Below, piece after piece: positions 48,501 through 63,900 of a stretch of DNA of 64,000 nucleotides. Made by a program: the position numbers. Positions within the stretch are counted from its first letter, which is position 1; each line of letters starts with the position of its first letter. The DNA is from Octopus sinensis (lineage: Eukaryota). Where the stretch lies: assembly GCF_006345805.1 (NCBI RefSeq), contig NC_043002.1, forward strand, positions 3,348,001 through 3,412,000, written 5' to 3'.

Positions 48501-51096
48501 AAAGGAAACATTTGCTAATGTAGTCCCAGATAGGCAATGCCCAACAAAAAGATTGGACGATCATAGAATCTCTTTAGATCCCAAATTTGCTCAGTGGAAG
48601 GTGAGCTCTATTTGAGGTCCAAAACTTGAGTGCATGGTCACCTCATTGTGAATAAGGAAGTGTTTGGCAGCTCATTGCTTTGAATATTGTGAAGATACAA
48701 ACATTGACAGGTCTTGAGTTCAAGTTTCTACTCCTATTTATAGAAATACTCTCATTATAGTCTAATAATAATAATGAGATATTGTAAAAATCTTGAGACA
48801 ACAAATGAAAGGGGGGGGCTGTGTGCCTAGAAAGGAGAAAATTTAGTAAAATACCTTTGTAGTTATTAAGTTGTTGTTGGGGGACATAAATTAACAATTT
48901 TTGAGGAAGGTTTTTAGATCACTTGAAAACTAGAAGTTTGTATCATAGAATCAGGGGTGGTGGTCTCAGGTGGGTTGGTATGAAAAGGATTAACTAAATT
49001 CAATGATTTGGATTGTTTCCTTTATCGTTTAAACTTCTTAGAGCTGTTAGTTACCATAGAGATATTCTATTTTTATTCCCTGTAATATCTGAGCCTGGAT
49101 TCAAAATTAACAAGAATCTCTGCTAAGTTCAATATAATGAGAGGAAATGTCATTTGGCTTCTCGTTTAGTTCCATTTCGGTTCCGCTTGAACTGACATTG
49201 GATTAAAAGCCTTCCACTTATGACCATTCAGTCTTATTATTACACCTGCTAAATTTAGGACTACATTAAGCTATTTGTTGTGCATGTGTAATTTAAAGGA
49301 GACTTGACTGTTATTTTTAACAAGTCAAACAGTTACTGCTCTCTGTGGTTCCGAACTTGATTTGCTTGTAGCAGAAAGATTGACATCTGCTCGATCAGAA
49401 ATCATTGATCAGAAATTGATCATTTGATCGAAGCAAGAGTTATAAAGCCATTGGAATTATTAATCCTCTTGGTTCCGGTTATTATTTCTACCGTTTAAAG
49501 ATAATACCAACTTTTATATATACAATGCCAAAACATTTCATTCTCTTATGGTAATCTTGAATATTTTTTTTTTCTTGTTTGTGTGTTTTTTCTCTTTAGG
49601 TGCAGAATTAAATTAAATGTTGTCATATAATAAATTCAATATATTTTTTTCAATTGATGGAACTTTAAATGTTTTGTGTAAATAATTGCTGTTTATATAA
49701 TAATTCAATATATTTGCTGAATTTACAAAACTTTATAAATGTTCATGTTAATAATTGTTATAATAAGTCAGTATATATTCTTGCAATGATGAAACCTTGT
49801 AAATGTTTTTTGTTAATAATTGCAGCTATTTTAATGCCTTAATTTTGGTTGCTGTCGATTTTATTTTCATCTTTTGATGAATTGATAAAATAAATTACAA
49901 GTAAAATACTGGATCAAGTCAAATGTTTGTACAAAGAAACCTGAACATTTTCAGAAAATGAATGATATTGAAATTATGATTTTTAAAGTATTTTTTTCTT
50001 TCTTTTTTTTGTTTGTTTGTTTTAAAATCCAAAATTTCATTTTCAGTGTTTCCATACTTACCTATAATATTACTTTTCTTACTCTAGAAGTCAAAGTGGA
50101 AACCACTGTGATGCGTGGTAGGTATTCTCTGTCTCTGACAACCTGCATGACGTTTTGGTTTTCAGTTTTGATTTATTGCCTCTTCTCAATCACATCATTT
50201 TTTCAGATTAAAAAAAAAGAAAATACGATTCATTTCATGTAGTTGTTTTTTTTTTTTTAAACAGATTTGACTCTCAACACTTCATTCTTCATTGGAACTA
50301 ACATCAAACCATTTTAGGTCTTGGTTCCATCAACTCTTTTACTCTAACCTCAATCATCACAAACTAACATGGCTGGCTTAGTCATTGATATTCTTGTGAG
50401 TCTTTATTGTAATTCTCTTGGTAACTATTAATCTTTTTGCTGTTTTAAATACTTTTTCATTTTTTGTCAGTTCAGTTATTCTCGGCTCTTTTTATGGCTC
50501 TATCATTTCACTTACTTTTTATTCAGAATTAAACCTATCTCTAAGCTATTTCTATGGTGGTGAAATACGTCTGTTCGTTTCTATTGATATTTTGCCTAAA
50601 CCCGTTCAGCAAGTATGAGTTTTGTATATTCTTCTGTATTTCACATAAAAAAATTTCTTGATATTTTGTTATAGAAATGTGTCTTTAACCCTTTTGTTAC
50701 TAACCCGGCCAAAACCGGCTCTGGCTCTGTGGTAAAATGTCTTGTTTTCATAGGTTTCGAATTAAAATCTTCCACCAAACCTTAGTCACAATTTACGTTC
50801 CTAACACTAGCTGAATGATGACTAAGTTATTTTACTAAATTCTTTTGTTATATTTAAAGTAATTGAAAGAAACACAGAGCATCTCAAAATAAATACAGTA
50901 ACGAAAGGGTTAAGTATAAATTTATTTATGAGAGAAATGAATATTAGGCGCAGGAGTGGCCGTGTGGTAAGTAGCTTGCTAACCAACCATATGGTTCCGG
51001 GTTCAGTCCCACTGCATGGCATCTTGGGCAAGTGTCTTCTGCTATAGCTCCGGGCCGACCAAAGCCTTGGTAGACGGAAACTGAAAGAAGCCTGTC

Positions 51097-51154
<58 letters not shown>

Positions 51155-60900: not shown

Positions 60901-63900
60901 AGACGTTGCCAAAGATTTCTAAATTTATACAATAATTTACTGCAAACAGAGAGGAAAGCTAATTACTTTGATGATTATTTAGTTGTTAACAAGCTCGTTA
61001 CTGTAATAAGGAGTCAAAATAGTTGCATAAGGAAGCGGTTTCTATTGTACGGCAGCTTTGCAACTGGAAATGAGCAAGAAATAAAAATGATTGGGTCTAG
61101 TCTTAACAATGGAGGTGGCTGAGTTTAGTTGCATGAATGATTTGCGACTAAGTAATGTATTATGTGAGTTGATGCCTAAGATGTGTAAGAAAGCTCAAAG
61201 GGGAAGAAAAATGATAGCACACGTTGGACTCTTTAACCCTTTAGCATTTAAACTGGCCGGATCCAGCCTCTCACACCTACCCTGCAATGTCATTCTAAAG
61301 ATAGGCAATCACATCTTTGAAAGATAATGCAGAATTCACTTTAAACCATGTGGATAAATAAGCATTACATTTGACAATGGTGAATGGTTAGAATCAAAAT
61401 CTAAAGATCTCACTGAAAATGCCGAATGGTTTCAATGCTGTTGCTTTTGTTGTTTTTGGTAGGGATCTGGCTAATTTCTTTTCAGGAAAGTTCATCTTGC
61501 TCTGGTACCCAGTTTCTGGTACCCTGTAATTTCACAAACTCCCTCCATTTAGCAATGCACCACTTCCTCAGCACTGGAATTGGCAGGCTACTTATCAGAC
61601 TTTAAATTCTTGAAATTCTTTAAGAGTAAAATCTCATCTATATGATAGACTATATTTCTGGGCTGAAAGATGGAAGCAATTCTTCTTATTAAAAGACTCC
61701 TTACTGAAGCCTCTCTGTCCAGTTGTAGACTCTTTGCAGTATTTTTAAGAAATGAAGTGAAAAGCTTTATTGATATCAATTGTGGTTAGATTATTATGAT
61801 GGTAGATTTTGTATTGACTGCATCTAATTTATAGTAGGAGAGTGCAAGGATTCAGCACAGTAGCTAGATACCATTTGTGTAGTGAAAAGTAGGATATTAA
61901 AAATAAATAACTGATAATTGTTTTAAAGATTAGTACTGATTGTAGAAGTGGAATGTTCGTTAAGCTTTAATGTGGTTGTGATCTTAGCTAGTTTTTATTG
62001 TCTTGAGTTGGTATAAATAGCCAACGATGGTAGGATATTGATTTTGGTGGAGTCTTTGATGGTTAAATTTTATCTCCTCATCATTTTATGTCTGCCTTCC
62101 ATGATGATATAGGTTAGACAGTTGGACAAGGTCCAATGGGTTAAGGGACCATATTATGCTCTGGTGTCACAGTTGCGTATGTGTATTTGGTCGAGCCATG
62201 TCGAATGGGATTTTTCTAAATTTCTCTCCTGTCTTTTGCTAAGGAAGATGTGAGATTGTGTCGTTGGTGGAAAGTCTCCATATTACAAGTGACTCTTATT
62301 CTGTCTTTGTGATTATTAGAGTAGATTGGATATCAAATGTTTTCGTATCATTTGATGTTATTAAACAGTTTTTGCCACTAAGTTGTGTTGATTGGAGAAG
62401 TTAATACAATATCATGGCCTCTGCCATTATATTTTCAAGCTATTTATTAAGATCTCGTCTGAACCGACCTCCTCGTTAGGGAGTGTTCTCATTTGAAGTA
62501 TTCTGTACGTAGATGAAGCCTAATGATTTCATTTCTTCTGTTAAGAATCTGTTGTGAGAGATTTCATTGTTGTACAAGCTCTTCTGAACTTGCAGGATAT
62601 GAAGTTCACAAATTATTGGTGCTGGACTTACTGTCTACAACCCATGAGCAACTATTGCGACTAATCAGCTGGTATAAACTTAGGGTTAACTAATTTAAGA
62701 AACATAAAAATCTAACTAGGAATTATTAGACACTGACTAATATTATTTTGAGTCTTTTGGTAAAAATGGGAGATAACCATGGAGAAGTTTCTGTCACATT
62801 GGATGTCCTCAGCTAAGCAGAGATTTCACTGTATTTAATGAAGTAATAAGATAATCTTTTTGTAACTGCAAATATGCATTTGTTGCCAGAGAAAGATAAA
62901 AATATTCCCAGAATCAATCACTCTTTGATGCTATCTGCATGCTCCTCTCCCTACTCTCAAACCCATTGCAACATACATCAACAAACCAAAAGCTTAGCAG
63001 CTGAGACAGGTTGAATATTTTGAAAGAGGACCAGTGGTCTGTTTGGGCCCAAGGCAAAGAATTGGCTTTGGACTTGTGCAATTAGTGTTTTCTTTGGGCC
63101 TCAGCAATCCTGTTCTGTTCATAGGGGGTCACACCTCTGCTGGGTAGTTTTATGTTTGCATTTTGCAGGTGTTGGGGGTTGATCTTAAAAGCTCTTCAGT
63201 GAGGCCCTGAGTGTATCCTCGAAGCACTTTGCGTTCGCATGCCTTCCGCTAGTTTGCTGTAAAACAGTCTCTTGGGGGCGTTGTGTGTCAGGCATTCAAA
63301 GAAGGTGACCTGCCACATATTCTCTGATTAGAACCATGACCAGAACTAAACTTTAGAAGGATGACAATTCATCTCTTGAAGAGTGGAAAGAAAAGAAATG
63401 TCTAGTAGAGATAACTGAAAATAATATTTACTTGTAGAAGTATATCTGTGAATATCATTGAAATCCTTTAAAACTGTCTCTGCAGAAAATGGGTTTAACC
63501 CTTTCGTTACCAACCTAGTTGAAACCGGTTCTGGCTCTGAATACAAATGTCTTGTTTCCATAAGTTTTCAGTTAAAATCTTCCTTAGTCACAATTTATGT
63601 TCCTAACACTAACTGAATGATAACTAAATTCTTTTGTTATATTTAAAGTAATTGAAAGAAACACAGAACAGCTCAAAATAAATACAGTAATGAAAGGGTT
63701 AAGAAAAAAATATAAACAGGATATTTAATCATGGCTTCCTGCTTCTTAATGGATTGTTTTATATATATTCCAAAATGAAAAGGAAAAATTGTATTTATGT
63801 AATCTATTTATTCATAATAATTTTGTTAATTTCATAAATTTTACCTCTCTCGGTAGAAGAGAAAATTGAAGCAGTTCAAATCACTTCTGGTATGTACCTC

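What the first reader, a model, noticed from the sequence alone, without database searches (positions are those of the whole stretch)
50088..63889. Array of frame-preserving phase 1-1 microexons after the LSP exon
Seen: three tiny exon candidates (50088-50117, 57323-57352, 63857-63889; 30, 30, 33 nt), each with a pyrimidine tract, AG, a good donor, the phase 1-1 needed after exon 47555-47674, and no stop. Their peptides EVKVETTVMR, DHEIPQTIVY and EEKIEAVQITS share an acidic start and beta-strand-like hydrophobic pattern. They are about 7 kb apart and too short for the ORF track. Inference: a combinatorial or mutually exclusive cassette that swaps a short linker next to an SP motif, possibly tissue- or neuron-specific as known for bilaterian microexons. 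The array may continue past the window.
Basis: partly seen in the sequence, partly recalled or inferred. Interest (0 to 1): 0.82.

Follow-up and report, generated by a model that had tools for sequence, protein, structure and literature searches.

The report
Octopus alternative microexon array, real

Summary
Confirmed. The window holds the 5' half of an Octopus gene, RefSeq LOC115212809 (O. sinensis) / LOC106873546 (O. bimaculoides). It is an uncharacterised protostome protein with an N-terminal domain, a winged-helix domain (Pfam HTH_69) and an MTAN/PNP-like nucleosidase fold.

All three candidates (50088-50117, 57323-57352, 63857-63889) translate exactly into consecutive segments of O. sinensis isoform models. 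All four are phase 1-1 and end in G.

The array continues past the window. The isoforms parse into 18 units between exon 5 (..APLSP) and the winged-helix exon.

The exons are not mutually exclusive: all four co-occur in 18 of 18 O. sinensis isoforms seen. The first exon is used alone or skipped in the O. bimaculoides/vulgaris models. Combinatorial choice is documented mainly in units beyond the window.

The insert is acidic (net charge -49 over 188 aa) and rich in Pro and Val. AlphaFold2 gives it low confidence throughout.

The same junction carries 7-11-aa optional units in other molluscs, and a 411-476-aa insert of the same kind in cuttlefish-like transcripts.

GCAUG lies 22-28 nt downstream of 3 of the 4 exons. 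That hints at Rbfox-type control, but tissue specificity is untested.

The exons are annotated, but I found no paper describing them. Interest is moderate.

The parts
1960..1974 (+). 15-nt alternative microexon (G)SNFD(Y), phase 1-1, in the N-terminal region of the same gene
   Evidence: cag|GTTCTAATTTTGACT|gtaagt. SNFD is at residue 8 of P0006. It is present or absent between isoform pairs P0002/P0001. A matching optional segment occurs in cuttlefish-like transcripts P0013/P0015/P0016 versus P0010-P0012.
10802..10945 (+). coding exon (IVMTPTKK..NNQTA), phase 1-1, 144 nt
   Evidence: exact substring of P0006 at residue 13
22367..22452 (+). coding exon (DDDNLGKPQ..TGDHLV), phase 1-0, 86 nt
39504..39615 (+). 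coding exon (ETRKLKFWY..RPDDFPR), phase 0-1, 112 nt
   Evidence: (100% identity to Octopus proteins, E 1e-16)
50088..50117 (+). microexon mA / unit u1, EVKVETTVMR, 30 nt, phase 1-1; used alone or skipped in O. bimaculoides/vulgaris models
50144..50149 (+). TGCATG, 27 nt downstream of the mA donor (candidate Rbfox-type intronic enhancer)
57323..57352 (+). microexon mB / unit u2, DHEIPQTIVY, 30 nt, phase 1-1
57374..57378 (+). GCATG, 22 nt downstream of the mB donor
58535..58560 (+). (ACC)n microsatellite that forms the C/A-rich acceptor tract of mC; it is repeated inside the exon, where it encodes Pro6
   Evidence: family D7: 58538-58563 versus 58568-58593, 88%
   Evidence: (tblastn 100%)
58624..58629 (+). 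TGCATG, 25 nt downstream of the mC donor
63857..63889 (+). microexon mD / unit u4, EEKIEAVQITS, 33 nt, phase 1-1; the array goes on beyond the window end

Best explanation
Shown:
- The window carries nine exons of Octopus gene LOC115212809.
- After exon 5 (..APLSP, ending in phase 1) come four short symmetric exons of 30, 30, 39 and 33 nt. Each starts in phase 1, ends in phase 1 and ends with G.
- In database isoforms they are the first four of 18 such units, which sit between the N-terminal domain and the winged-helix plus nucleosidase-fold part.
- Every unit is a multiple of three and has the same phase. Any subset can therefore be spliced out without a frameshift, and the junction codon is always G-NN (E, D, A, V or G).
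- Annotated products range from no insert, through mA alone (+/- the 5-aa GMTAD unit), to long forms that carry mA-mD plus a variable choice of downstream units.

Inferred:
- The array encodes a modular, strongly acidic, Pro/Val-rich disordered linker with several LPPP-type proline motifs. Splicing sets its length and motif content, and so changes how the N-terminal domain is tethered to the winged-helix/nucleosidase module and which partners the linker can recruit.
- The four in-window exons behave as the constant 5' part of the long form. mA is regulated on its own.
- Inclusion is probably helped by strong G|GTAGGT donors and by (U)GCAUG 22-28 nt downstream of three of the exons. That would put them under an Rbfox-type factor, with nerve or muscle enrichment.
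- The array grew in cephalopods at an older molluscan splice hot spot. Growth was by duplication of multi-exon blocks, and in the case of mC by exonisation of an (ACC)n microsatellite.
For: Identity of the gene and exons:
- The exon 5 peptide hits Octopus proteins at 100% identity (33 proteins with E<=1 among 36 candidates).
- Whole-codon translations of all nine window exons are exact substrings of P0006/P0036, at residues 8, 13, 61, 89, 127, 167, 177, 187 and 200.

The array:
- 27 of 27 octopod isoforms parse into an 18-unit model.
- 19 of 19 unit starts, counting the exon after the array, are E, D, A, V or G.
- 23 of 23 optional units at the same junction in 18 non-cephalopod mollusc proteins start with G, D, E or A.

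Optional use:
- mA is in 4 of 8 O. bimaculoides/vulgaris models.
- mB-mD are in 0 of those 8 and in 18 of 18 O. sinensis isoforms.

Linker character:
- The Octopus insert is 188 aa: E 17.6%, V 14.4%, P 13.3%, D 12.8%, net charge -49.
- AlphaFold2 gives pLDDT <50 for residues 164-309 and 318-348 of P0006, while the flanking domains are confident.
- The same holds for residues 165-645 of the cuttlefish-like P0016.

Permissive site:
- Other family members carry a whole Methyltransf_FA domain at this junction.

Block duplication:
- Self-similarity peaks at offsets of 41 and 20 aa in Octopus (22 and 17 windows; shuffle maximum 6).
- It peaks at 38 and 76 aa in P0016 (42 and 41 windows; shuffle maximum 9).

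Regulation:
- GCATG lies at +28, +22 and +26 nt for 3 of 4 microexons, and within 100 nt of 0 of 5 other exons in the window.
- The background is 3.9% of GT sites, giving a binomial P of 2.3e-4.
- GCATG is the top-ranked of 1024 5-mers.
- An RBFOX3 homologue is reported in the O. vulgaris transcriptome (PMC5736919, passage read).
Against: - The isoforms are RefSeq computational models (XP_). I could not see the reads behind them.
- I saw 18 O. sinensis isoforms. The database holds at least 51: a 48-member cluster, of which 15 were listed, plus 3 others.
- mB, mC and mD appear only in O. sinensis models. No cephalopod genome was available, so their DNA conservation is untested.
- Low pLDDT is not proof of disorder, and the alignment is shallow over the insert.
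- Unit boundaries outside the window are inferred from isoform differences. They can shift by one residue where neighbouring residues are the same.
- I noticed the GCAUG signal after looking. Corrected for 1024 5-mers its P is about 0.4. mD has no copy in the 111 nt that remain before the window ends.
- P+E+V+K is 48-51% of the inserts. That is below the 0.54 per-exon ratio used for titin PEVK exons (PMC6469411, passages read).
- Nothing here tests what the linker binds or does.
Confidence: 0.85

Rival explanations
1. Freely combinatorial cassettes: each of the four in-window exons is chosen independently, and the isoforms I did not see contain such combinations.
For: All four have the same phase, so any subset keeps the frame. 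mA is used alone. Downstream units are clearly chosen independently. At least 33 O. sinensis isoforms in the database were not seen. Cuttlefish-like transcripts P0010 and P0015 carry only the first one or two units.
Against: 18 of 18 O. sinensis isoforms seen have all four together. No model has mB, mC or mD without the others.
Confidence: 0.25
2. Real but functionally neutral splicing: tolerated exonisation in a permissive disordered linker, with the isoform variety being noise rather than regulation.
For: The octopus and cuttlefish-like inserts share little sequence. A search with the P0016 insert found only itself and P0014 (2 hits among 7998 scored candidates). mC sits in a microsatellite. 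NAGNAG-type one-codon variants occur at four units. The junction tolerates anything from 0 to 476 aa, or a whole domain.
Against: Frame and phase are kept over 18 units. The splice signals stand out from 451 decoys. The mA peptide is identical in models named O. sinensis, O. vulgaris and O. bimaculoides. Optional units sit at this junction across molluscs. GCAUG is positioned alike next to three exons.
Confidence: 0.2
3. Mutually exclusive cluster: one exon of the set per transcript, as in tandem-duplicated exon substitution.
For: Similar lengths (30, 30, 33 nt) and the same phase.
Against: All four occur together in 18 of 18 isoforms. The exons and their flanks share nothing beyond splice-site consensus.
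Confidence: 0.02
4. Chance AG..GT open frames in AT-rich intron, not exons.
For: 455 open phase 1-1 candidates exist in the region.
Against: There are exact matches to annotated protein isoforms. Only the four annotated exons pass the joint splice criteria, against 0.47 expected from shuffles.
Confidence: 0.01

Closest known systems
Troponin T N-terminal mini-exon array (fast skeletal TnT; recalled, no paper read: the search found none)
   Same: A run of very short cassette exons of one phase, encoding an acidic variable segment, spliced in many combinations to give dozens of isoforms.
   Different: A different gene family, protein context and lineage. Here there are at least 18 units in Octopus and many more in cuttlefish-like transcripts. 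The first four are co-included in the isoforms seen.
Titin PEVK exon array (PMC6469411, passages read: 113 annotated human PEVK exons, hard to annotate, grown by duplication, differentially spliced)
   Same: Many short repetitive exons encoding a low-complexity E/V/P/K-rich unstructured segment. Length is set by exon skipping and growth is by block duplication.
   Different: The PEVK fraction is 48-51%, below the 0.54 ratio used there. The units are 5-22 aa rather than about 28 aa. The host is a roughly 580-aa enzyme-like protein, not a muscle filament. Spring function is untested.
Bilaterian neural microexons (preprint 10.64898/2026.09.05.749416, passages read: small exons dominate conserved neural-specific splicing, and neural exons evolve recurrently in the same genes; O. 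bimaculoides was among its species)
   Same: Short symmetric exons that alter a surface or linker, and a splice hot spot reused across lineages.
   Different: 30-39 nt is above the usual <=27-nt limit (recalled). No UGC lies within 35 nt upstream of any of the 4 acceptors (sequences). Neural use is not shown. That paper's supplements, which might list this gene, were closed.
Rbfox-enhanced cassette exons (downstream UGCAUG promotes inclusion; established knowledge, recalled)
   Same: (U)GCAUG lies 22-28 nt downstream of 3 of 4 exons.
   Different: No binding or regulation data. The statistical support is post hoc.

Membership tests
Symmetric cassette exons | Length a multiple of 3 with the same phase at both ends | tested here: met
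   30, 30, 39 and 33 nt, all phase 1-1
Symmetric cassette exons | Transcripts both with and without the exon | tested here: met
   mA is in 4 of 8 O. bimaculoides/vulgaris models. mB-mD are in 18 of 18 O. sinensis isoforms, 0 of those 8, and absent from Argonauta P0007. These are computational models, and mB-mD presence and absence are in different species' annotations.
Mutually exclusive exon cluster | Only one exon of the set per transcript | tested here: not met
   All four are together in 18 of 18 isoforms
Mutually exclusive exon cluster | Exons are recognisable duplicates of each other | tested here: not met
   The alignment of exons with flanks shares only splice-site columns
Neural microexons (eMIC/Srrm4 type) | Length 3-27 nt (recalled definition) | tested here: not met
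   30-39 nt. Only the separate exon 1960-1974 (15 nt) qualifies.
Neural microexons (eMIC/Srrm4 type) | UGC motif close upstream of the acceptor (recalled) | tested here: not met
   0 of 4 have TGC within 35 nt upstream. mC has one at about -41 (sequences).
Neural microexons (eMIC/Srrm4 type) | Neuron-enriched inclusion | not testable with these tools
   No expression data at hand
Rbfox-regulated exons | (U)GCAUG in the downstream intron near the exon | tested here: met
   3 of 4 at +22 to +28 nt. It is the top 5-mer of 1024 but not significant after correction.
Rbfox-regulated exons | Inclusion depends on the factor | not testable with these tools
   Needs a minigene, knock-down or CLIP
PEVK-like spring segment | P+E+V+K ratio of at least 0.54 (PEVK_Finder setting, PMC6469411) | tested here: not met
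   47.9% in Octopus and 50.0-50.9% in cuttlefish-like inserts, measured over whole inserts
PEVK-like spring segment | Many short repeated exons, differentially spliced, unstructured | tested here: met
HTH_69 + PNP/MTAN-like protein family (host gene) | Pfam HTH_69 above the curated cut-off | tested here: met
   35.8 bits against a cut-off of 27 for P0006
HTH_69 + PNP/MTAN-like protein family (host gene) | Nucleosidase (PNP_UDP_1/MTAN) fold in the C-terminal half | tested here: met
   Foldseek best hit 3eei_A, E 1.6e-11, target TM 0.75. Pfam PNP_UDP_1 scores 22.4 bits, below the 25.1 cut-off. Catalytic residues were not examined.

The most novel reading that the evidence does not exclude
Cephalopods turned an old molluscan one- or two-microexon splice hot spot into a large array that evolves fast. 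Octopus has at least 18 units, and cuttlefish-like transcripts carry inserts of 411-476 aa. On this reading the array acts as a splice-tunable acidic tether or autoinhibitory arm inside a conserved winged-helix/nucleosidase-fold enzyme. It would be under Rbfox-type control in nerve or muscle, with octopod and decapod arrays expanded largely independently.
Probability: 0.15. Interest if true: 0.6.

Novelty: new member of a known kind. Interest (0 to 1): 0.4.

Why it matters
A reader with no tools picked three 30-33-nt exons out of 16 kb of intron, and all three are real. Splice-site, phase and open-frame logic can therefore recover microexons that ORF-based views miss.

Biologically, this is a clean natural example of how same-phase mini-exons ending in G let a gene grow and vary a disordered linker without ever breaking the frame. 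It sits at a junction that other molluscs use for single optional microexons and other animals use for a whole inserted domain.

The host protein is conserved across protostomes and has no described function. The splice-variable linker and the GCAUG elements give concrete handles for studying it. The exons themselves are already in RefSeq, so this is not a discovery of new sequence features.

Tried and rejected
- Duplication among the four in-window exons: aligning the exons with 50-70 nt flanks shows only splice-site columns conserved.
- Origin from transposable elements: blastn of each exon region against the window gave only microsatellite or low-complexity hits. The repeat pair 50684-50920 / 63494-63709 lies in introns and does not touch the exons.
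- Extra unannotated exon 48934-48969 (EVCIIESGVVVS): it has the best donor score among the decoys but a weak acceptor tract (0.55), and it is in none of the isoforms seen. I treated it as a decoy.
- Structured RNAs: Rfam gave 0 matches over the whole window.
- Relatives of the insert: a search with residues 166-640 of P0016 returned only P0016 and P0014 among 7998 scored candidates.
- Solved structures by sequence: one weak hit, E 0.35.
- ESM Atlas on the N-terminal domain: no usable hit.
- Literature: no paper holds LOC115212809 or LOC106873546, nor HTH_69 or PF22979. The troponin T/mini-exon search found none. The microexon+octopus and Rbfox+octopus searches and the tandem exon duplication / microexons / disordered search (104 papers, 12 listed, none opened) gave only context.
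- Not done:
Only exon 5 was searched on its own.
  - The microexon peptides (10-13 aa) are below every search tool's minimum length. They were compared with database proteins by tblastn and exact substring only.
  - No cephalopod genome was available, because genome contigs holds only bacteria and archaea and was not used.
  - The supplements of preprint 10.64898/2026.09.05.749416, which may list this O. bimaculoides gene, were closed.

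
Full report
**What is at the coordinates.** The upstream exon 47555-47674 ends ..TTG AGT CCA G|gtaat, in phase 1. Each candidate has an AG acceptor, a G|GTAGGT or G|GTATGT donor, a length divisible by three and an open frame in phase 1-1.

**Which gene.**
- Exon 5 alone (40 aa) found 33 proteins with E<=1 among 36 candidates.
- The best hits, at 100% identity, are 'uncharacterized protein LOC115212809' isoforms of Octopus sinensis and LOC106873546 models named O. 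vulgaris and O. bimaculoides.
- The fetched isoforms read ..SEAPLSP-EVKVETTVMR-DHEIPQTIVY-ESKLPPPPPPVTE-EEKIEAVQITS-AEECPLPD... All three candidates are therefore annotated coding exons, in genomic order.
- tblastn of P0006 against the window placed the intervening ESKLPPPPPPVTE at 58561-58599.
- Its acceptor tract is an A/C-rich (ACC)n microsatellite rather than a pyrimidine run. The same repeat inside the exon encodes the six prolines.
- Taken one exon at a time, the whole-codon translations of nine window exons are exact substrings of P0006/P0036 at residues 8, 13, 61, 89, 127, 167, 177, 187 and 200. The exons are 1960-1974, 10802-10945, 22367-22452, 39504-39615, 47555-47674 and the four microexons.
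- The first coding exon (MADTQE) is not in the window.

**More than chance.** 455 open phase 1-1 AG..GT candidates of 15-60 nt lie in 47675-63990. Those four are the annotated exons, including the one not used to set the thresholds.

| Control | Candidates passing |
|---|---|
| 200 dinucleotide shuffles | mean 0.47; >=4 in 1 of 200 |
| Minus strand of the region | 0 of 482 |
| Other phases, + strand | 2 of 411 and 1 of 416 |
| Rest of the window | 3 of 1431 (+), 1 of 1447 (-) |

The thresholds are post hoc and the donor matrix is an approximate recalled one. This measures how far the sites stand out; it is not a formal test.

**How the exons are used.** One 90%-identity cluster holds 48 proteins, of which 15 were listed, all named O. 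sinensis isoforms. Three more isoforms are separate entries.
- The 18 O. sinensis isoforms, eight full-length O. bimaculoides/vulgaris models and one Argonauta model all parse (27 of 27) into an ordered set of 18 optional units, u1-u18. These lie between ..APLSP and GLPKIDN.
- In 18 of 18 O. sinensis isoforms, u1-u4 (the four window exons), u6, u8, u15 and u17 are present.
- Units u5, u7, u9-u14, u16 and u18 vary. Four units also show one-codon (NAGNAG-type) variants.
- In the eight O. bimaculoides/vulgaris models, u1 is present in four and absent in four. u18 (GMTAD) is present in seven of the eight, and no other unit appears.
- The Argonauta model has no insert.
- O. bimaculoides isoform X6 (P0112) starts inside the array, so the long form exists there too.
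- Mutual exclusion is therefore contradicted. mA is an independent cassette. mB-mD behave, in what I could see, as a block that belongs to the long form. Free combinatorial choice is documented downstream of the window.

**Why the peptides look alike.** Every one of the four exons ends in G and begins with A. The junction codon is therefore GA-N, giving E or D.
- Over the whole array, 19 of 19 unit starts are E, D, A, V or G. Boundaries outside the window are inferred from isoform differences.
- The same holds for 23 of 23 optional units of 7-11 aa at this junction in 18 non-cephalopod mollusc proteins: G 19, D 2, E 1, A 1 (alignment of 137 sequences).
- The shared 'acidic start' is thus a signature of phase 1 plus an exon-final G, rather than of a common fold.

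**What the array encodes.**
- The full Octopus insert is 188 aa: E 17.6%, V 14.4%, P 13.3%, D 12.8%, net charge -49.
- AlphaFold2 on P0006 with a 68-sequence alignment gives a mean pLDDT of 70.7.
- The N-terminal domain (12-155) is confident. So are the winged helix (355-414) and the C-terminal domain.
- Residues 164-309 and 318-348, which are the insert, have pLDDT <50. The four window exons show no secondary structure.
- Pfam finds HTH_69 (35.8 bits, cut-off 27) and a sub-threshold PNP_UDP_1 match.
- Foldseek matches the C-terminal domain to MTAN nucleosidases (3eei_A, E 1.6e-11).
- The array is therefore a linker between two folded parts.

**Wider picture.**
- The family has 818 members at E<=1e-5 among 1338 candidates. 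They span molluscs, annelids, a brachiopod, nemerteans, a priapulid, ticks and insects.
- Most are 560-600 aa with no insert.
- Unnamed transcript-derived proteins have the same N-terminus as an Acanthosepion pharaonis entry (P0009). They carry at the same junction nothing, one unit, two units, or 411-476 aa of E/V/I/K-rich units (P0010-P0016).
- The two long forms, P0014 and P0016, differ by five blocks of 7-23 aa.
- The P0016 insert also has low confidence throughout (residues 165-645).
- A search with the P0016 insert returned only P0016 and P0014.
- Both inserts are internally repetitive: offsets of 41 and 20 aa in Octopus and 38 and 76 aa in P0016, well above shuffles. This points to duplication of multi-exon blocks. 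The repeated part in Octopus lies beyond the window.
- In more distant family members (41-44% identical to P0049; P0154, P0156, P0166, P0167) the same junction holds 172-215 extra residues; Pfam finds a Methyltransf_FA domain in that stretch in the three scanned (P0154, P0156, P0167).
- The junction is therefore a permissive insertion site that different lineages have used differently.

**Regulation (inferred).**
- (U)GCAUG lies 27-28, 22 and 25-26 nt downstream of the donors of mA, mB and mC.
- It is not within 100 nt of any of the five other exons in the window.
- mD shows none in the 111 nt left before the window ends.
- Against 3.9% of all GT sites, the binomial P is 2.3e-4.
- In an unbiased scan GCATG ranks first of 1024 5-mers, but the corrected P is about 0.4.
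- Downstream UGCAUG as an Rbfox-dependent enhancer is established knowledge (recalled).
- An RBFOX3 homologue is reported in the O. vulgaris transcriptome (PMC5736919, one passage read).
- This is the only pointer toward nerve or muscle specificity. It is a prediction, not a result.

**Known or new.**
- The exons are in RefSeq models, so the sequence features are not new.
- No paper in the searchable library holds either LOC identifier or the Pfam name.
- The nearest described things are the troponin T mini-exon array (recalled), the titin PEVK exon array (PMC6469411, passages read) and bilaterian neural microexons with recurrent hot spots (preprint 10.64898/2026.09.05.749416, passages read; supplements closed).
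- I file the finding as a new member of a known kind: a same-phase cassette mini-exon array encoding a variable disordered linker.

**What stays open.** I did not see read-level support for the models. I have no DNA conservation in other cephalopods, no tissue pattern and no function for the linker. I built and searched no joined spliced model. The microexon peptides are too short to be searched on their own.

Noticed in passing
window 1960-1974: A true 15-nt alternative microexon (G)SNFD(Y), also phase 1-1, near the N-terminus of the same protein. A matching optional segment occurs in O. bimaculoides models and in cuttlefish-like transcripts, so it looks conserved across cephalopods.
   Followed up: partly
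window 58535-58599: Exon mC and its acceptor tract both lie in an (ACC)n/(CCA)n microsatellite with a local 30-nt duplication (58538-58563 versus 58568-58593, 88%). The Pro6 run is a translated trinucleotide repeat, so its length may vary between individuals or species.
   Followed up: partly
proteins P0154, P0156, P0166, P0167 (unnamed representatives), junction equivalent to window 47674: In more distant family members the same inter-domain junction holds 172-215 extra residues. Pfam finds a Methyltransf_FA domain (PF12248, E 1e-22 to 3e-27) there in the three scanned, P0154, P0156 and P0167.
   Followed up: partly
window 47659-47673 (..APLSP): The residue before the final proline at the exon end is S, T or D in most mollusc homologues (AP-x-[S/T/D]-P in the alignment). 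This would fit a proline-directed phosphosite next to the splice junction. It is an inference only.
   Followed up: no
window 50684-50920 and 63494-63709: A pair of interspersed-repeat copies (80-94% identical, about 12.8 kb apart) lies in the introns after mA and before mD (families D8, D9, D12). Many other SINE-like copies and CA/TA microsatellites fill the introns.
   Followed up: no
window 9185-9340, minus strand: A stop-free frame whose translation looks like a reverse-transcriptase fragment of a retroelement, in the intron before exon 10802-10945. This is by eye from the ORF list and was not searched.
   Followed up: no
window 63854-63862: The acceptor of mD reads tag|AAG, a NAGNAG-like arrangement that could give a one-codon variant. 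None was seen at this exon in the 18 isoforms, although such variants occur at four downstream units.
   Followed up: partly
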